Positions 1 through 45,829 of a stretch of 64,000 bases of DNA are shown piece by piece; positions within the stretch are counted from its first letter, which is position 1; each line of letters starts with the position of its first letter. The DNA lies in assembly GCF_988242995.1 (NCBI RefSeq), contig NZ_OZ547043.1; one strand, given 5' to 3'. The notes below the pieces were generated by a model. The model did no database searches. It was not told the DNA's origin and saw nothing but the letters and a program-made list of their open reading frames with translations. Position numbers and translations under genes: made by a program.

Positions 1-2
1 TT

Positions 3-245
<243 letters not shown>

Positions 246-10736: not shown

Positions 10737-10925
10737 CAGGGACATCCTTTTATCATCGGGAATACGAAAGAAAAGGGAGAATAAACGTCTTACTTATAGA
10801 ACAGTGAAGAATGCCACAATTTTACGCTTTGAAAATGATGACACTATCACAGTTGGCGCATTCATTAACGATAGGGTATAAGTAAAACAATAAGTTAACA
10901 CCGCTCACAGAGACGAGGTGGAGAA

Positions 10926-14016: not shown

Positions 14017-14735
14017 AAATGCGCCTGTAAGGCTCTGTTACCAGCCGCGCCCTAACAGGCGCATACGATCTGACATTTGCATTCAACTTCGTTACTTACG
14101 GCCCGTAAACGGGCTGCCCGGATATGGAATCGATAACTGCTCCCCCATTTTATCCTCTTCAAGCTGGTGCTTTATGTAGTCACGTATCTTCGCCGTGTTC
14201 TTACCCACCGTATCGACATAGTACCCTCGGCACCAGAACTCCCTGTTTCTGTATTTGAATTTCAAATCCCCAAACTGCTCGTAAAGCATCAGACTGCTTT
14301 TCCCTTTCAGATATCCCATAAAGCCGGATACGCTCATTTTGGGTGGGATTTCCACAAGCATATGGATATGATCTGCGCAGCACTCTGCTTCCAGAATCCG
14401 TACGCTTTTCCACTCACACAGCTTTCTCAAAATACTGCCTATCGCCCTACGCTTCTCTCCGTAAAACGCCAGTCTTCGGTATTTCGGCGCAAAAACTATG
14501 TGATATTTACAGTTCCAGCGGGTGTGCGCTAAGCTCTTTTCGTCCCCCATTGGGACCCCCTTTTGATTTCTTGTTTGACACTTGCAGTTGCCAGACCGCA
14601 AGGTGTTTTAACAAATCAAAAGGGGTTTTAATAACTGGCTCAAAGCTGAAAGCTTTCCGGAACCCCCAGCCTAGCTGGGGGTTTTCTGTGCACAATAAGA
14701 CGGCTCCTGATTCAGGAGCCGTTGATGTTTCTGGG
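14017..14735 (-). mobile_element. IS200-like insertion sequence (IS200/IS605 family); boundaries approximate
   Basis: About 0.7 kb unit carrying a single HUH Y1 transposase, subterminal hairpins at both ends and no terminal inverted repeats, lying between ytfK and ytfL. Confidence 0.8.
14092..14550 (-). CDS. tnpA: IS200-family Y1 (HUH) transposase TnpA
   Basis: 152-aa product MGDEKSLAHTRWNCKYHIVFAPKYRR...HIHMLVEIPPK...SPFTGRK with the HUH motif; RBS sequestered in an upstream hairpin. Confidence 0.92.
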   Translation of the reverse strand: MGDEKSLAHTRWNCKYHIVFAPKYRRLAFYGEKRRAIGSILRKLCEWKSVRILEAECCADHIHMLVEIPPKMSVSGFMGYLKGKSSLMLYEQFGDLKFKYRNREFWCRGYYVDTVGKNTAKIRDYIKHQLEEDKMGEQLSIPYPGSPFTGRK

Positions 14736-16081: not shown

Positions 16082-16257
16082 ATCTTATCCGACCTTTCAG
16101 GCCAGATCCTCGGAAGGGGAAGTTGATTAATTTGTGTGAAATACACATTGAAAGCCGATTCGAAGAAAGTGAACCGGCATTTTCAGTGGCTAGTATAGCG
16201 TAAGGTACTGTAAAGCCGCCAGAGGGTTAAAATTCAGACTGCTGATAAATGCAAAAC

Positions 16258-25789: not shown

Positions 25790-25890
25790 TCAATGCCTGA
25801 TGCCGACTTGTGGGCCGCCGGATAAGGCATTCACGCCGCATCCGGCGGTTGTGCGAGATGCCTGATGCGACGCAGTTGTGTCTTATCTGG
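25790..25890. repeat. REP elements
   Basis: GCCTGATGCCG, CGGATAAGGC and CGCCGCATCCGGCG palindromic units between ytfQ and ytfR. Confidence 0.8.
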
Positions 25891-25915
25891 CGCACGCTTT
25901 ACAACGGGGGAAACT

Positions 25916-41806: not shown

Positions 41807-42754
41807 TCAGGACAGGGTGGCGGGGATGATGATTTGTTGCGGTTCGCTGCGCCCGGTTACCTGCGCGATCAACTGGCAGGCCGCCTGGCGTCCAGCTTCG
41901 GCGTAACCGGGATCTACGGTGACGATCTCCGGATGGAGGAATTTCATTAACGGCGTATTACCGACGCTCGCCAGTTGCAAGGTCTCGATGCGTTGCTCTT
42001 GCAGGTATTTACTTGCGCCAAGTGCCAGCGTGTCGGTTGCGCACAGTAACGCGGTAGTTTCAGGCGTAATCACTTTTGCTACGTTCTCATAGCCTTGCTT
42101 CATAGCAAGCCCTGGCAGAGCGGCAACGGGATGCAGTTTATGCACTTTGCAGAACGCCAGGTAGGCTTCGTGACGTCGCTTACCGGTCGTCACGTCACTA
42201 TGCGGCACGCCGAGATAACTGATATTACGATGCCCCTGGTCATACAGCCGTTGCATCAGGATCTTGATTGCCCCTTCGTCGTCATAACAGACCGAAGCAA
42301 AGCCTTTTGCGTCACGCGCCAGCAGAACCAGCGATGACTGCCAGTGGGCTAACATTTCTTCTGTTATGCCGGTAAAACCGAACAGCACTACGCCGTCGAT
42401 ATTACGCCGTTTCAGCACCCCCAAATGTTCGGCAACTAATTGCGGGGAAAACTGACTTTCCATCATGATTGGGTCGTAACCTTGTTCATAGAACGCTGGC
42501 AGCATGGTTTGAACGGCGAGATTTTCTGACAACGAATCCAGACGGGTAACAATGATGGCGACCACTTTATCGCTTTGCCCACGCATAGCGCGCGCAGAGC
42601 GGGAAGGGGAAAATCCATGCTGATTCATCACTGCTTCAACACGCTCGCGCGTGCGCTGGCTCACGCCGCTTTCGTTATTCAGCACCCGGGAAACCGTAGA
42701 TTTCCCCACGCCGCTTAAGCGTGCGATGTCTTTGATGGTCAGCCGATTTTGCAT
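41807..42754 (-). CDS. treR: Trehalose operon repressor (LacI family)
   Basis: 315-aa ORF MQNRLTIKDIARLSGVGKSTVSRVLNNES... with N-terminal HTH and periplasmic-binding-like effector domain. Confidence 0.95.
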   Translation of the reverse strand: MQNRLTIKDIARLSGVGKSTVSRVLNNESGVSQRTRERVEAVMNQHGFSPSRSARAMRGQSDKVVAIIVTRLDSLSENLAVQTMLPAFYEQGYDPIMMESQFSPQLVAEHLGVLKRRNIDGVVLFGFTGITEEMLAHWQSSLVLLARDAKGFASVCYDDEGAIKILMQRLYDQGHRNISYLGVPHSDVTTGKRRHEAYLAFCKVHKLHPVAALPGLAMKQGYENVAKVITPETTALLCATDTLALGASKYLQEQRIETLQLASVGNTPLMKFLHPEIVTVDPGYAEAGRQAACQLIAQVTGRSEPQQIIIPATLS

Positions 42755-42827
42755 CCTGTTGTCCCGTAACGTGTTGTTTAATTATTTGAGCCTAACTTTA
42801 CCCGTGCATTCAGCAATGGGTAAAGTC

Positions 42828-42845
42828 TGGTTTATCGTTGGTTTA
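42828..42845 (+). promoter_or_regulatory. PhoP box of the mgtA promoter
   Basis: Direct repeat GGTTTA-tcgtt-GGTTTA matching the PhoP consensus, about 290 bp upstream of the mgtA start codon. Confidence 0.8.
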
Positions 42846-42869
42846 GTTGCCTGCAGGTATTATATCGCC

Positions 42870-43132
42870 ATAGATGCTACGAATATTATTGGATTCTCCT
42901 TATTATTTGCGGCGCTTTTTTCACTTACCGGAGGTTATATGGAACCTGATCCCACGCCTCTCCCTCGACGGAGATTAAAACTTTTCCGGTAAGCCCGTCT
43001 TTTCACGGCGTTACCGGATGCGTAAGGCCGTGACGTTTTAACGTCCCTGCTCAGCTTTATTACCTTCAGGTAAGGCTTCGCCACGCCTGAAGACATTTCT
43101 GTACTGTTTCAGACAGTGTGGAGGGACTCCTT
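42870..43132 (+). promoter_or_regulatory. mgtA leader (Mg2+/proline-responsive attenuator region)
   Basis: Long untranslated leader between the PhoP-dependent promoter and mgtA, containing the proline-rich leader ORF mgtL. Confidence 0.7.
42939..42992 (+). CDS. mgtL: mgtA leader peptide
   Basis: 17-codon [20 protein letters not shown] with a GGAGG ribosome-binding site inside the mgtA leader. Confidence 0.85.
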
Positions 43133-45829
43133 ATGTTTAAAGAAATTTTTACCCGGTTCATTCGCCATTTACCTTCCCGTCTGGTTCATCGCGATCCATT
43201 GCCTGGCGCGCAGCAGACAGTGAATACGGCGGTCCCGCCGTCCTTAAGTGCGCATTGCCTGAAAATGGCGGTGATGCCCGAAGAAGAATTGTGGAAAACG
43301 TTCGACACCCATCCGGAAGGATTAAATCAGGCGGAAGTGGAATCTGCCCGCGAACAACATGGTGAAAATAAATTACCCGCACAACAACCGTCGCCGTGGT
43401 GGGTTCATTTATGGGTCTGCTATCGCAACCCCTTTAATATTTTACTCACCATTCTCGGCGCTATTTCTTACGCCACGGAAGATTTATTTGCCGCGGGCGT
43501 TATCGCGCTAATGGTCGCTATTTCTACGTTGCTGAACTTTATTCAGGAAGCACGTTCCACTAAAGCGGCAGATGCCCTGAAAGCGATGGTCAGCAATACT
43601 GCGACGGTGCTGCGCGTAATTAACGACAAAGGCGAAAATGGCTGGCTGGAGATCCCGATCGACCAGCTGGTGCCCGGCGATATTATAAAACTGGCGGCAG
43701 GGGATATGATCCCGGCAGATTTACGTATCTTGCAGGCGCGGGATCTGTTCGTCGCTCAGGCGTCGTTAACCGGTGAGTCTCTGCCCGTGGAAAAAGCCGC
43801 TACTACTCGCCAGCCGGAGCACAGCAATCCGCTGGAGTGCGACACCCTGTGTTTTATGGGCACCACCGTGGTGAGCGGCACGGCACAAGCAATGGTGATT
43901 GCTACAGGAGCCAACACCTGGTTTGGTCAACTGGCGGGGCGTGTTAGTGAGCAGGAAAGCGAGCCGAATGCCTTTCAGCAAGGGATCAGCCGCGTCAGTA
44001 TGCTGCTGATTCGCTTTATGCTGGTGATGGCTCCGGTGGTGTTGCTTATCAACGGTTACACCAAAGGTGACTGGTGGGAAGCGGCACTGTTTGCGCTTTC
44101 GGTCGCGGTAGGCCTAACGCCGGAAATGTTGCCGATGATTGTTACCTCGACGCTGGCGCGCGGCGCAGTAAAGCTGTCGAAACAGAAAGTGATCGTCAAA
44201 CATCTGGATGCCATTCAGAACTTTGGCGCAATGGATATTCTGTGCACTGATAAAACCGGCACCCTGACACAGGATAAAATTGTGCTGGAGAATCATACCG
44301 ATATCTCCGGTAAAACCAGCGAACGCGTGCTGCATAGCGCGTGGTTGAACAGTCATTACCAGACCGGACTTAAAAACCTGCTTGATACCGCGGTGCTCGA
44401 AGGTACGGATGAAGAGTCAGCGCGCTCGCTGGCCAGCCGTTGGCAAAAAATTGATGAGATTCCGTTTGATTTCGAGCGTCGCCGGATGTCGGTGGTAGTG
44501 GCAGAAAATACCGAGCACCATCAGCTGGTTTGCAAAGGTGCATTGCAGGAAATCCTCAATGTGTGTTCGCAGGTGCGTCACAATGGCGAGATTGTGCCGC
44601 TCGATGACATCATGCTGCGTAAGATTAAGCGGGTTACTGATACGCTGAATCGTCAGGGGCTGCGCGTGGTTGCGGTGGCGACGAAATACCTGCCAGCGCG
44701 TGAAGGAGATTACCAGCGGGCGGATGAATCCGACCTGATCCTCGAAGGATATATTGCTTTCCTTGATCCGCCAAAAGAGACAACTGCTCCGGCACTGAAG
44801 GCATTAAAAGCGAGTGGCATTACCGTAAAAATCCTTACTGGCGACAGTGAGTTAGTTGCAGCGAAAGTGTGCCATGAAGTGGGGCTGGACGCGGGAGAGG
44901 TGGTCATTGGTAGTGATATTGAAACGCTATCTGACGACGAACTGGCAAATCTCGCACAGCGCACCACGCTGTTTGCTCGCCTGACGCCGATGCATAAAGA
45001 ACGCATTGTGACCTTACTGAAGCGCGAAGGGCATGTGGTTGGCTTTATGGGCGATGGTATAAATGATGCGCCCGCCTTACGTGCTGCGGATATCGGCATT
45101 TCTGTGGACGGCGCGGTAGATATTGCCCGTGAAGCGGCTGATATCATCCTGCTGGAAAAAAGCCTGATGGTGCTGGAAGAGGGGGTTATTGAGGGACGTC
45201 GCACTTTCGCCAACATGCTGAAATACATCAAAATGACGGCGAGTTCTAACTTCGGTAATGTGTTCAGCGTGCTGGTGGCGAGTGCTTTCTTGCCCTTCCT
45301 GCCGATGTTGCCGTTACACTTGCTTATTCAGAACCTGCTGTACGATGTGTCACAGGTGGCGATCCCGTTTGATAACGTCGACGACGAGCAAATTCAAAAG
45401 CCGCAGCGTTGGAATCCGGCGGATCTGGGGCGCTTTATGATCTTCTTCGGACCGATCAGCTCGATCTTCGATATTCTGACGTTTTGCCTGATGTGGTGGG
45501 TATTCCATGCCAACACGCCGGAAACGCAAACGCTGTTCCAGTCGGGCTGGTTTGTGGTGGGCTTACTGTCGCAAACGCTGATTGTGCATATGATCCGCAC
45601 CCGTCGTGTACCGTTTATTCAGAGCTGTGCATCGTGGCCGTTAATGATCATGACCGTGATCGTGATGATTGTCGGGATCGCATTGCCGTTTTCACCGCTG
45701 GCCAGTTATCTGCAGCTGCAGGCGCTGCCGTTAAGCTATTTCCCGTGGCTGGTTGCGATTCTGGCAGGGTATATGACGTTAACCCAGTTGGTGAAAGGAT
45801 TTTATAGCCGTCGTTACGGCTGGCAGTAA
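43133..45829 (+). CDS. mgtA: Mg2+-importing P-type ATPase
   Basis: 898-aa product MFKEIFTRFIRHLP... with P-type ATPase motifs DKTGTLT and GDGINDAPAL; internal start chosen within track ORF 43118-45829. Confidence 0.96.
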   Translation: MFKEIFTRFIRHLPSRLVHRDPLPGAQQTVNTAVPPSLSAHCLKMAVMPEEELWKTFDTHPEGLNQAEVESAREQHGENKLPAQQPSPWWVHLWVCYRNPFNILLTILGAISYATEDLFAAGVIALMVAISTLLNFIQEARSTKAADALKAMVSNTATVLRVINDKGENGWLEIPIDQLVPGDIIKLAAGDMIPADLRILQARDLFVAQASLTGESLPVEKAATTRQPEHSNPLECDTLCFMGTTVVSGTAQAMVIATGANTWFGQLAGRVSEQESEPNAFQQGISRVSMLLIRFMLVMAPVVLLINGYTKGDWWEAALFALSVAVGLTPEMLPMIVTSTLARGAVKLSKQKVIVKHLDAIQNFGAMDILCTDKTGTLTQDKIVLENHTDISGKTSERVLHSAWLNSHYQTGLKNLLDTAVLEGTDEESARSLASRWQKIDEIPFDFERRRMSVVVAENTEHHQLVCKGALQEILNVCSQVRHNGEIVPLDDIMLRKIKRVTDTLNRQGLRVVAVATKYLPAREGDYQRADESDLILEGYIAFLDPPKETTAPALKALKASGITVKILTGDSELVAAKVCHEVGLDAGEVVIGSDIETLSDDELANLAQRTTLFARLTPMHKERIVTLLKREGHVVGFMGDGINDAPALRAADIGISVDGAVDIAREAADIILLEKSLMVLEEGVIEGRRTFANMLKYIKMTASSNFGNVFSVLVASAFLPFLPMLPLHLLIQNLLYDVSQVAIPFDNVDDEQIQKPQRWNPADLGRFMIFFGPISSIFDILTFCLMWWVFHANTPETQTLFQSGWFVVGLLSQTLIVHMIRTRRVPFIQSCASWPLMIMTVIVMIVGIALPFSPLASYLQLQALPLSYFPWLVAILAGYMTLTQLVKGFYSRRYGWQ

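What the first reader, a model, noticed from the sequence alone, without database searches (positions are those of the whole stretch)
42828..43132. mgtA regulatory region: PhoP box, long leader and proline-rich leader peptide mgtL
The direct repeat GGTTTA-N5-GGTTTA is followed by a leader of about 260 nt containing the 17-codon [20 protein letters not shown]. Translation of the proline codons and Mg2+ levels are known to control attenuation into mgtA. The whole control region is intact here.
Basis: partly seen in the sequence, partly recalled or inferred. Interest (0 to 1): 0.3.

Follow-up and report, generated by a model that had tools for sequence, protein, structure and literature searches.

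The report
E. coli mgtA promoter and leader
This is the well-known control region of the E. coli magnesium-pump gene mgtA: a PhoP-activated promoter, a 263-nt switchable leader RNA and the tiny proline-rich mgtL reading frame. It is intact and ordinary here.

Summary
Nothing here is new.

- **PhoP box and promoter:** GGTTTATCGTTGGTTTA lies at 42829-42845. It is the only consensus PhoP box in the 64 kb (0.02 expected by chance). It sits 12 nt upstream of a TATTAT -10 hexamer (42858-42863), the spacing described for the Salmonella mgtA promoter.
- **Leader:** the inferred start at about 42870 gives a 263-nt leader up to the mgtA ATG at 43133.
- **mgtL:** the ORF ([17 protein letters not shown]) is at 42939-42992.
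- **Database support:** Rfam RF01056 matches 42924-43039 at 125.8 bits (threshold 40). RefSeq annotates treR, mgtL and mgtA on near-identical DNA in 5425 of 5426 complete E. coli genomes. Downstream of the inferred start, the leader differs from K-12 at one base (43119).
- **Alternative structures:** the competing helices A+B and C are both present. Both are kept across 38 Enterobacterales species, with compensatory changes.
- **mgtL stop codon:** it lies inside the shared helix arm in 35 of 38 species, although ORF length varies.
- **Terminator:** the leader has no intrinsic terminator. Termination is Rho-dependent in Salmonella but not settled for E. coli.
- **Extra feature:** a conserved helix pairs leader nt 174-181 with the mgtA Shine-Dalgarno region.

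The parts
41807..42754 (-). treR, the divergently transcribed upstream neighbour (trehalose operon repressor, 315 aa). It marks the left boundary of the intergenic region.
   Evidence: ORF. Annotated as treR in E. coli 042 and K-12 on aligned DNA.
42829..42845 (+). PhoP box, the direct repeat GGTTTA-TCGTT-GGTTTA. With its flanking bases it reads TGGTTTATCGTTGGTTTAG.
   Evidence: It is the only consensus match in the window, with 0.02 expected by chance. It matches the 19-mer Salmonella mgtA PhoP box listed in PMC3335776 at 18 of 19 positions. Boxes with at most 2 mismatches occur in 34 of the 38 other Enterobacterales mgtA loci scanned.
42858..42863 (+). Predicted -10 hexamer TATTAT, 12 nt downstream of the PhoP box. 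There is no usable -35 hexamer, as expected for a class II activator-dependent promoter.
   Evidence: Sequence. The 12-nt box-to-(-10) spacing equals architecture I of PMC3335776. The same spacing to a TAT-rich -10-like hexamer recurs in most Enterobacteriaceae loci. A sigma-70 consensus scan finds no stand-alone promoter.
42870..43132 (+). The mgtA 5' leader, 263 nt from the inferred transcription start (about 42870, +/-1) to the base before the mgtA ATG.
   Evidence: The start is inferred from promoter geometry and from mutation coordinates in PMC11552253. The leader folds more stably than shuffled sequence (z = -2.9). It differs from the K-12 leader only at 43119.
42924..43039 (+). Core of the Mg2+-responsive leader: stem A with its two inner hairpins, and stem-loop B.
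   Evidence: Rfam RF01056 (Magnesium-II) matches full length, positions 1-115 of 115, at 125.8 bits against a gathering score of 40, E = 3e-27.
42924..42934 (+). 5' arm of stem A (CUUACCGGAGG, leader nt 55-65). It contains the mgtL Shine-Dalgarno sequence GGAGG at 42930-42934.
   Evidence: Present in the minimum-free-energy fold and the Rfam consensus. Stem A is 89% paired across 38 species, mostly through sequence invariance.
42939..42992 (+). mgtL leader ORF: 17 codons plus TAA, encoding [17 protein letters not shown] (leader nt 70-123).
   Evidence: Annotated as mgtL (WP_001387276.1 in E. coli 042, b4702 in K-12) on identical DNA. An ORF starting M[DE]P[DAVI]P lies upstream of mgtA in 39 of 39 Enterobacterales loci. 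Its stop codon is the TAA of the CCGGUAA arm in 35 of 38 species.
42983..42993 (+). 3' arm of stem A (leader nt 114-124). Bases 42986-42992 double as the 5' arm of the alternative stem C. The arm includes the mgtL stop codon.
43005..43031 (+). Stem-loop B (leader nt 136-162), part of the 'OFF' or high-Mg2+ conformation. Its 5' arm (43011-17, UUACCGG) is the 3' arm of stem C.
   Evidence: Pairing probability is 0.8-1.0 in free RNA. It is 92% paired across 38 species, and 7 of its 10 pairs show compensatory changes.
42986..43017 (+). Alternative stem-loop C, the 'ON' or low-Mg2+ conformation. It pairs 42986-42992 with 43011-43017 and excludes both stem A and stem B.
   Evidence: It is the minimum-free-energy structure of the nascent RNA 1..150. 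It also forms in three of four models of a ribosome stalled at a proline codon (codons 3, 7 and 9) with stem A's 5' arm held unavailable. It is 94% paired across 38 species, with compensatory changes in 3 pairs.
43043..43050 (+). Conserved GUCCCUGC segment (leader nt 174-181) that pairs with the mgtA Shine-Dalgarno region at 43120-43127.
   Evidence: Present in the minimum-free-energy fold and recovered independently by RNAalifold on 27 species. The helix is 84% paired, with a CG-to-UA change in 8 species at one pair.
43064..43092 (+). Conserved hairpin in the 3' part of the leader (nt 195-223). It could be the counterpart of the pause or termination region mapped in Salmonella, but that is not verified.
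   Evidence: It is 84% paired across 27 species, and 7 of its 11 pairs have changes on both sides. The functional assignment is inference only.
43120..43127 (+). mgtA Shine-Dalgarno region (GGAGGGAC), the 3' partner of the helix that starts at 43043.
43133..45829 (+). mgtA, the regulated gene: a Mg2+-importing P-type ATPase of 898 aa.
   Evidence: TIGR01524 equivalog model at 1607.5 bits against a cutoff of 610.75. RefSeq annotation.

Best explanation
This is the native Escherichia coli treR-mgtA intergenic region. It carries the two-layer control system already described for mgtA.

Layer 1 is transcription initiation. Phosphorylated PhoP binds the direct repeat at 42829-42845. The repeat overlaps the -35 position of a promoter that has a good -10 hexamer (TATTAT) but no -35 hexamer, so transcription starts at about 42870 only when the PhoQ/PhoP system is active, that is, when external Mg2+ is low.

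Layer 2 acts on elongation into the gene. The 263-nt leader can fold in two mutually exclusive ways:
- The OFF fold is stem A plus stem-loop B. Stem A is a three-way junction that encloses the mgtL Shine-Dalgarno sequence and the whole mgtL ORF.
- The ON fold is stem-loop C, formed by the 3' arm of A pairing with the 5' arm of B.

The choice between the folds depends on how a ribosome translates mgtL while the RNA is being made.
- When cytoplasmic Mg2+ or proline is sufficient, the ribosome reaches the UAA that lies inside the 3' arm of stem A. That arm is then covered, stem B forms, and transcription stops before mgtA. In Salmonella this stop is caused by Rho at exposed C-rich sites and an RNA polymerase pause.
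- When Mg2+ or proline is limiting, the ribosome stalls or falls off at the M-E-P-D-P-T-P-L-P stretch. The 3' arm of A stays free and pairs with the newly made 5' arm of B to give stem C, and RNA polymerase reads on into mgtA.

A further conserved helix pairs leader nt 174-181 with the mgtA Shine-Dalgarno region. It may add control of mgtA translation.

Shown here: the presence, position and conservation of every sequence and structure element. Taken from the literature: PhoP dependence, the Mg2+ and proline response, and the role of Rho.
For: Identity:
- The DNA is 99.8% identical to many E. coli chromosomes. A match occurs in 5425 of 5426 complete genomes, annotated treR, mgtL and mgtA.
- The intergenic DNA is identical to strain 042. 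It differs from K-12 at 5 positions, only one of them (43119) downstream of the inferred transcription start.

Promoter:
- There is a single consensus PhoP box, with 0.02 expected by chance.
- The 12-nt gap to TATTAT equals the Salmonella mgtA 'architecture I' (12 nt from box to -10, 7 nt from -10 to +1, 264-nt leader; PMC3335776).
- No stand-alone sigma-70 promoter is found.
- The same box and spacing recur across Enterobacteriaceae.

Leader RNA:
- RF01056 matches full length at 125.8 bits against 40.
- The minimum-free-energy fold and the ensemble give A+B (P about 0.8-1.0), with C as the minor alternative (P about 0.17).
- The nascent RNA 1..150 folds into C.
- Blocking the footprint of a ribosome stalled at proline codon 3, 7 or 9 gives C; codon 5 did not. 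Blocking the footprint of a ribosome at the stop codon gives B.
- Covariation across 38 species supports both A+B and C.

mgtL:
- An M[DE]P[DAVI]P ORF is present in 39 of 39 Enterobacterales loci.
- ORF length varies from 11 to 17 codons, yet the stop codon is the UAA inside the shared arm in 35 of 38 species. The frame and the position of the stop relative to the switch are therefore under selection.

Downstream gene: MgtA matches the equivalog model at 1607 bits.

Literature on mechanism: PMC11552253, PMC11282234, PMC12360218, PMC5314796.
Against: - Nothing contradicts the identification.
- The start site was inferred, not measured, and is uncertain by about 1 nt.
- In E. coli the termination step is unsettled. 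ChIP-qPCR with a Rho R66S mutant gave a Rho termination score of 1.0 for mgtA (PMC5499598), and PMC11552253 states that no evidence of Rho-dependent termination has been detected for E. coli mgtA. PMC7815308, in contrast, lists mgtA among 5'-UTR 3' ends linked to known premature Rho-dependent termination.
- Stem A shows almost no covariation because its sequence is nearly invariant, so comparative data neither support nor refute it. This is expected, since its arms must also fit stems B and C and encode mgtL.
- The ribosome-blocking folds are a thermodynamic cartoon, not a kinetic model. One of the four stalled-ribosome cases (proline codon 5) gave stem B rather than stem C.
Confidence: 0.93

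Rival explanations
1. The elements are the same, but the primary Mg2+ sensor is the RNA itself. Mg2+ would bind the leader directly and stabilise the A+B fold (the original 'Mg2+ riboswitch' model). mgtL translation would then report only proline availability or play a secondary role.
For: Rfam files the element as a riboswitch aptamer. PMC11552253 notes that Mg2+-dependent RNA folding alone was sufficient to modulate Rho-dependent termination in vitro, and that the sensing mode is 'still not fully understood'. A+B is the thermodynamically favoured fold of the free RNA.
Against: The strict conservation of the ORF's N-terminal M[DE]PDP motif and of its stop-codon position inside the switch arm is hard to explain without translation being part of the sensor. 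Recent E. coli and Salmonella work points to Mg2+-dependent ribosome destabilisation on the EPDP motif. The two modes are not mutually exclusive.
Confidence: 0.3
2. In E. coli the leader does not work through Rho-dependent termination. Instead, or in addition, it controls mgtA translation or mRNA stability through the conserved helix that sequesters the mgtA Shine-Dalgarno sequence (43043-43050 with 43120-43127), or it uses a Rho-independent mode of termination.
For: The Rho termination score for E. coli mgtA was 1.0 in a Rho R66S background, even though RNA polymerase occupancy dropped along the gene (PMC5499598; restated and in the review table). The anti-Shine-Dalgarno helix is found by the minimum-free-energy fold and by RNAalifold. 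It is 84% paired across 27 species, with a CG-to-UA covariation in 8 species.
Against: The authors of PMC5499598 themselves note that R66S may not abolish termination at every site. PMC7815308 lists mgtA among E. coli 5'-UTR 3' ends that correspond to known premature Rho-dependent termination. The leader is conserved from Citrobacter to Cedecea and is alignable with the family that includes Salmonella. No intrinsic terminator exists in the leader. The anti-Shine-Dalgarno helix was not tested experimentally here.
Confidence: 0.25
3. It is a classical trp-type attenuator, in which leader-peptide translation chooses between an antiterminator and an intrinsic terminator (a GC-rich hairpin followed by a U tract).
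For: The layout is similar: a short leader ORF rich in the sensed amino acid, and overlapping alternative helices.
Against: The terminator scan finds no hairpin-plus-U-tract anywhere in the leader on the + strand. Its only hit lies inside treR at 42707-42723. Stem B is followed by GACGUUUUAACG, which is not a U tract after a strong GC stem. The literature assigns termination to Rho in Salmonella.
Confidence: 0.02
4. It is a chance resemblance: the repeat and the short ORF are coincidental and have no function.
For: Short ORFs are abundant; 92 ORFs of at least 20 aa overlap the 6.5 kb around the site.
Against: The expected number of PhoP boxes is 0.02. The Rfam match has E = 3e-27. The ORF, the box and the helices are conserved across 38-39 species.
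Confidence: 0.005

Closest known systems
E. coli K-12 mgtL-mgtA control region (b4702/b4242; treR-mgtA intergenic region)
   Same: It is the same locus, with the same gene order, the same PhoP box and -10 hexamer, and the same mgtL peptide. The sequence from the inferred start to 14 nt before the mgtA ATG is identical.
   Different: There are five single-base differences in the 386 bases aligned:
- 42765 and 42797 lie upstream of the PhoP box.
- 42850 and 42852 lie in the spacer between the box and the -10 hexamer; the spacer length is unchanged.
- 43119 (T here, C in K-12) adds an A-U pair at the base of the last leader hairpin and creates an in-frame GTG at 43118.

The allele is identical to that of E. 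coli 042, and 2594 genomes match at 99% identity or more.
Salmonella enterica mgtA promoter and leader (Mg2+-sensing leader with mgtL; Rfam RF01056)
   Same: - The PhoP box is identical at 18 of 19 positions.
- The 12-nt box-to-(-10) spacing and the roughly 264-nt leader length match.
- The A/B/C stem logic and a 17-codon proline-rich ORF inside stem A are shared.
   Different: - The -10 hexamer is TATTAT here and TATGAT in Salmonella.
- The peptide starts MEPDP here; MDPDP is the commoner form in the other genera examined.
- Rho dependence and the U218 pause were demonstrated in Salmonella only.
- The Salmonella sequence itself was not available to align. It was compared only through the published box and the Rfam model.
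corA leader with the corL uORF (Salmonella and E. coli)
   Same: It has the same design: a three-way junction containing a short uORF, mutually exclusive folds that expose or hide rut sites, and Mg2+-dependent uORF translation that is inversely coupled to the transporter gene.
   Different: It is a different locus and sequence. The corA promoter is constitutive, with no PhoP box. corL has a UUG start and only one conserved proline.
M-box / ykoK Mg2+ riboswitch (Rfam RF00380, Firmicutes and mycobacteria)
   Same: It also controls Mg2+ transporter genes through a leader RNA that responds to Mg2+.
   Different: It has an unrelated fold and sequence. A permissive Rfam scan of the region (E up to 1) returns only RF01056. 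The M-box has no leader peptide in its classical form and uses an intrinsic terminator.

Membership tests
PhoP-activated class II promoter ('architecture I' of the PhoP regulon) | Direct repeat (T/G)GTTTA-N5-(T/G)GTTTA in the direct orientation | tested here: met
   GGTTTATCGTTGGTTTA at 42829-42845 on the + strand has no mismatches to the consensus. It is the only match in the window, with 0.02 expected.
PhoP-activated class II promoter ('architecture I' of the PhoP regulon) | Box ends about 12 nt upstream of the -10 hexamer, overlaps the -35 position, and there is no good -35 hexamer | tested here: met
   Exactly 12 nt (42846-42857) separate the box from TATTAT, matching PMC3335776 Table 1. 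The sigma-70 consensus scan finds no promoter. The same 12-nt geometry is seen in most related species.
PhoP-activated class II promoter ('architecture I' of the PhoP regulon) | PhoP-P binding and PhoP-dependent transcription from the predicted start | not testable with these tools
   Known for the Salmonella mgtA promoter from the literature. The start at about 42870 is inferred.
Rfam RF01056 (Magnesium-II, the mgtA Mg2+-responsive leader) | Covariance-model score at or above the gathering threshold, over the full model length | tested here: met
   125.8 bits against 40, model positions 1-115 of 115, at 42924-43039.
Rfam RF01056 (Magnesium-II, the mgtA Mg2+-responsive leader) | Located in the 5' leader of an mgtA-type Mg2+ P-type ATPase gene | tested here: met
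   The downstream ORF matches TIGR01524 at 1607.5 bits.
Rfam RF01056 (Magnesium-II, the mgtA Mg2+-responsive leader) | Mutually exclusive conformations (A+B versus C) that are conserved among relatives | tested here: met
   Across 38 species, A+B are 89% paired and C is 94% paired, both with compensatory changes.
Rfam RF01056 (Magnesium-II, the mgtA Mg2+-responsive leader) | Change of conformation and of read-through in response to Mg2+ | not testable with these tools
   Literature only.
MgtL leader peptide | Short ORF with its own Shine-Dalgarno sequence inside stem A, starting M-(D/E)-P-D-P and rich in proline | tested here: met
   [17 protein letters not shown] has 4 prolines and 2 acidic residues, with GGAGG 5 nt upstream of the ATG. 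The DNA is identical to that annotated as WP_001387276.1 (MgtL) in E. coli 042.
MgtL leader peptide | ORF and reading frame conserved among relatives, with the stop codon placed in the switch arm | tested here: met
   Present in 39 of 39 loci. The stop codon is the UAA of CCGGUAA in 35 of 38 species, despite lengths of 11-17 codons.
MgtL leader peptide | The ORF is actually translated, with stalling or drop-off at the EPDP motif | not testable with these tools
   Toeprinting and reporter data for E. coli mgtL are reported in PMC11282234.
Rho-dependent attenuator | Accessible C-rich, G-poor rut region downstream of the switch, and Rho-dependent 3' ends in the leader | tested here: inconclusive
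   C exceeds G at leader nt 71-110 (40-47% C, 17% G) and nt 171-200 (33% C, 13% G). Composition alone does not define a rut site. The E. coli literature is contradictory.
Intrinsic-terminator (trp-type) attenuator | GC-rich hairpin followed by a U tract inside the leader | tested here: not met
   There is no terminator-like site in 42870-43132. The only hit lies in treR at 42707-42723.

The most novel reading that the evidence does not exclude
The most novel reading not excluded concerns the conserved long-range helix that pairs leader nt 174-181 (43043-43050) with the mgtA Shine-Dalgarno region (43120-43127). It could be a separate output of the leader that gates mgtA translation. That might explain why E. 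coli mgtA showed no Rho dependence in a Rho R66S background although RNA polymerase occupancy still fell along the gene. The helix is probably already drawn in published secondary-structure models of the leader. I could not find it discussed in the papers held here, which is weak evidence of novelty.
Probability: 0.12. Interest if true: 0.35.

Novelty: already known. Interest (0 to 1): 0.08.

Why it matters
The mgtA leader is a textbook case of one mRNA leader combining several signals: external Mg2+ through PhoQ/PhoP at the promoter, and cytoplasmic Mg2+ and proline through translation of a leader peptide and RNA refolding. Finding it intact in this window only confirms that the window is ordinary E. 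coli chromosome with normal Mg2+ homeostasis control.

Two points have modest value beyond confirmation:
- The comparative data collected here show that the position of the mgtL stop codon inside the switch arm, and the pairing of both alternative folds, are conserved across 38 species. They also show a conserved anti-Shine-Dalgarno helix.
- The output step in E. coli itself, Rho-dependent or not, is still unsettled in the literature.

Tried and rejected
- **Papers not held:** I tried to read the primary Salmonella and E. coli papers (Park 2010, PMC2967377; Zhao 2011, PMC3102267; Gall 2016, PMC5206563), but none is held. Published stem coordinates and the Salmonella sequence therefore could not be compared directly. 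I used the Rfam model, PMC3335776, PMC11552253 and other held papers instead.
- **No Salmonella or Klebsiella locus:** A Klebsiella hit came only from mislabelled 'plasmid' records, at 73% identity over 227 nt.
- **5' hairpin:** the hairpin at leader nt 3-47 (42872-42916) is predicted strongly in this sequence. It is not supported comparatively: it is 56% paired, no better than shuffled controls, and the segment is missing in several genera. I rejected it as a defined element of the family.
- **Last hairpin:** the hairpin at nt 224-250 as folded in E. coli is not conserved in register (48% paired). Other genera have their own GC-rich hairpin at that place.
- **First ribosome-blocking run:** it used a start codon position one base off and let stem A close around the ribosome. 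It was redone with corrected coordinates.
- **Intrinsic terminator and stand-alone promoter:** both were searched for, and neither was found in the leader.
- **Plasmid copies:** the hits were checked. They are mostly chromosomes or chromosome fragments filed as plasmids.
- **Anti-Shine-Dalgarno helix in the literature:** the search found nothing specific.
Full report
**What is there.** The stretch 42755-43132 is the intergenic region between a leftward ORF of 315 aa (41807-42754) and a rightward ORF of 898 aa that starts at ATG 43133.
- A 551-base query across the region matches 5425 of 5426 complete E. coli genomes. The best hits are 99.8% identical, and RefSeq annotates treR, mgtL and mgtA under the match.
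- The intergenic DNA is base-for-base identical to E. coli 042.
- It differs from K-12 MG1655 at five positions: 42765, 42797, 42850, 42852 and 43119. Only 43119 lies downstream of the inferred transcription start.
- The downstream protein matches the Mg2+-translocating P-type ATPase equivalog model TIGR01524 at 1607.5 bits, against a cutoff of 610.75.

**Checking the observation.**
- The direct repeat GGTTTA-TCGTT-GGTTTA is at 42829-42845. It is the only match to the PhoP-box consensus (T/G)GTTTA-N5-(T/G)GTTTA on either strand of the 64-kb window, with 0.02 expected from shuffles.
- The 17-codon ORF encoding [17 protein letters not shown] runs from 42939 to 42992, stop codon included. GGAGG lies 5 nt upstream of its ATG.
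- The finding's end, 43132, is the last base before the mgtA ATG.

All stated elements are therefore real and far beyond chance.

**Promoter geometry.**
- The box ends at 42845, and TATTAT follows at 42858-42863, after exactly 12 nt.
- PMC3335776 describes the Salmonella mgtA promoter as 'architecture I'. It has a single direct-orientation box (TGGTTTATCGTTGGTTTAA) 12 nt upstream of the -10 hexamer, 7 nt from the -10 to +1, a box that overlaps a very poor -35, and a 264-nt leader.
- The window's 19-mer, TGGTTTATCGTTGGTTTAG, matches that box at 18 of 19 positions.
- A plain sigma-70 consensus scan finds no promoter here, as expected for an activator-dependent class II promoter.
- Applying the Salmonella geometry puts +1 at about 42870, which gives a 263-nt leader. 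Mutation coordinates in PMC11552253 imply 42871. The published Salmonella leader length of 264 nt, applied here, would imply 42869. The start is therefore inferred to within about 1 nt.
- In 38 other Enterobacterales mgtA loci from genome contigs, a box with at most 2 mismatches was found upstream of mgtL in 34. In most Enterobacteriaceae it is followed after 12 nt by a TAT-rich -10-like hexamer.
- The box is correctly positioned.

**Leader RNA.** Rfam RF01056 (Magnesium-II, the mgtA Mg2+-responsive element) matches 42924-43039 over its full length at 125.8 bits. The gathering score is 40, and no other family reaches E = 1 in the region.
- The minimum-free-energy fold of the leader is more stable than shuffled sequence (z = -2.9).
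- The fold contains stem A (leader nt 55-65 with 114-124). Stem A is a three-way junction that encloses the mgtL Shine-Dalgarno sequence and the whole ORF.
- The fold also contains stem-loop B (nt 136-162).
- The segment CCGGUAA in the 3' arm of stem A is complementary to UUACCGG in the 5' arm of stem B. Their pairing gives the mutually exclusive stem C (42986-42992 with 43011-43017).
- In the equilibrium ensemble of the full leader, A+B have probability of about 0.8 and C of about 0.17.
- The nascent transcript 1..150 has C as its minimum-free-energy structure.
- A simple model removed the footprint of a ribosome stalled at a proline codon, with stem A's 5' arm held unavailable. It gave stem C for codons 3, 7 and 9 but not for codon 5. 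Removing the footprint of a ribosome at the stop codon gave stem B.
- This reproduces the published logic but is a thermodynamic sketch only.

**Comparative test of the alternative structures.** I aligned the core region from 38 species of Enterobacterales, from Citrobacter to Yersinia and Acerihabitans (alignment A2).
- The A+B structure is paired in 89.4% of cells, against 34-47% when the partners are slid by 1-3 columns. Stem B has compensatory changes in 7 of its 10 pairs, and one inner hairpin of stem A in 4 of 5.
- Stem C is paired in 94.4% of cells, against 18-52% when slid, and 3 of its 8 pairs show changes on both sides.
- The outer helix of stem A is almost invariant in sequence, so it gives no covariation signal. 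This is expected for a segment that must fit two alternative partners and also encode the end of mgtL.

Conserved alternative structures are therefore present.

**mgtL.** Every one of 39 Enterobacterales loci has an ORF beginning M-(D/E)-P-(D/A/V/I)-P upstream of mgtA. Two Yersinia loci use GTG as the start codon.
- The C-terminal half varies freely, and the length ranges from 11 to 17 codons.
- In 35 of 38 species the stop codon is nevertheless the UAA embedded in the CCGGUAA arm shared by stems A and C.
- Insertions and deletions have therefore kept both the reading frame and the position where a terminating ribosome would sit on the switch. This is strong indirect evidence that translation of the ORF is part of the mechanism.

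**Mechanism and what is still open.**
- The literature model is that, at sufficient cytoplasmic Mg2+ or proline, mgtL is translated to its end. The A+B (OFF) state then prevails and transcription stops within the leader.
- At low Mg2+ or proline, ribosomes stall or dissociate on the proline and acidic codons (the EPDP motif). Stem C then forms and transcription continues.
- The leader has no intrinsic terminator.
- In Salmonella, termination is Rho-dependent and involves exposed rut sequences and a long-lived pause at U218.
- For E. coli the output step is not settled. ChIP-qPCR in a Rho R66S strain gave a Rho termination score of 1.0 for mgtA, although RNA polymerase occupancy fell along the gene (PMC5499598). 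PMC11552253 and a 2025 review repeat that Rho dependence may not be conserved in E. coli. PMC7815308 lists mgtA among 5'-UTR 3' ends linked to known Rho-dependent regulation.
- Whether Mg2+ is sensed by the RNA directly or through translation is also described as not fully understood.

I aligned the whole leader from 27 Enterobacteriaceae (A3).
- RNAalifold recovers stems A and B. It also finds a long-range helix between a nearly invariant GUCCCUG(C) segment (43043-43050, leader nt 174-181) and the mgtA Shine-Dalgarno region (43120-43127).
- Counted on the alignment, this helix is 84% paired. One pair changes from C-G to U-A in 8 species.
- The hairpin at nt 195-223 (43064-43092) is also conserved: it is 84% paired, and 7 of its 11 pairs have changes on both sides.
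- The strong 5' hairpin (nt 3-47) and the last hairpin as folded in E. coli are not supported comparatively.
- The anti-Shine-Dalgarno helix could add translational control. I found no discussion of it in the papers held, but the primary structural papers were not available.

**Differences from K-12.**
- The two spacer changes (42850 C for T, 42852 T for A) keep the 12-nt spacing.
- The change at 43119 (T for C), 14 nt before the ATG, adds an A-U pair at the base of the last hairpin. It also creates an in-frame GTG at 43118. That is why the mechanical ORF list starts mgtA five codons early.
- This allele is shared with E. coli 042, and 2594 genomes match at 99% identity or more.

**Verdict.** The region is the canonical, intact E. 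coli mgtA control region, which is already known. Interest is low. The only mildly open threads are the unresolved termination mechanism in E. coli and the conserved anti-Shine-Dalgarno helix.

Noticed in passing
L046, L048, L056, L058, L060, L061, L064-L068, L073, L075-L077, L081: about 330 nt upstream of the mgtA match (about 1170-1500 in most loci): Pseudomonas mgtA homologues carry a strongly conserved, hairpin-rich upstream leader of about 300 nt. Examples are GTCGGCCGGTnnnGGTAACCGGC and TGCCGTTGTCTCGCC...GCGAGAAGCGGCA. These leaders have no mgtL-like ORF. A recurrent 'MPLSRQ' ORF is not conserved as an ORF, because its ATG is CTG in several species. The six of these loci that were scanned (L046, L048, L057, L058, L064, L067) matched no Rfam family at the gathering threshold. 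This may be an uncurated leader RNA.
   Followed up: partly
L032-L034 and L036-L039 (Rouxiella, Rahnella, Serratia, Yersinia, Acerihabitans), upstream of mgtA: These loci have M[DE]P[DAVI]P leader ORFs and stems that align with A, B and C. Even so, Rfam RF01056 does not reach its gathering score in any of them. The curated family therefore appears to cover only the Enterobacteriaceae form of the leader.
   Followed up: partly
window 43118-43119: T at 43119 (C in K-12) creates an in-frame GTG five codons upstream of the mgtA ATG, so the mechanical ORF is 903 aa rather than 898 aa. It also adds an A-U pair at the base of the last leader hairpin. No Shine-Dalgarno sequence precedes this GTG.
   Followed up: yes
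window 60656-60850 (+), 10737-10859 (+), 14560-14683 (-), 16143-16200 (-), 25816-25892 (+), 59651-59726 (+), 59747-59822 (+): Other Rfam matches above gathering score in the window, in the order of the coordinates given: Ysr276, ES239, STnc490, STnc450, and three naRNA4 (REP-derived) copies.
   Followed up: no
NZ_AP023207.1 38158-38474 (hit H17) and other 'plasmid' records: The mgtA leader matches 9 E. coli records in the plasmid collection. Most are records of 0.4-4.9 Mb, evidently chromosomes or chromosome fragments filed as plasmids. One 93.8-kb record also carries mgtL-mgtA.
   Followed up: no
L001 608-1558 (E. coli 042 treR); window 41807-42754: RefSeq flags treR of E. coli 042 as a pseudogene ('incomplete; missing N-terminus'). 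The window's treR ORF is a complete 315 aa, and the intergenic DNA up to its start codon is identical between the two. This looks like an annotation quirk rather than a real difference.
   Followed up: no
window 43240: The only difference from E. coli 042 within 42700-43250 is G for C at 43240. It is the third position of mgtA codon 36 (Pro) and is synonymous. No complete E. coli genome in the collection is 100% identical over these 551 bases.
   Followed up: yes
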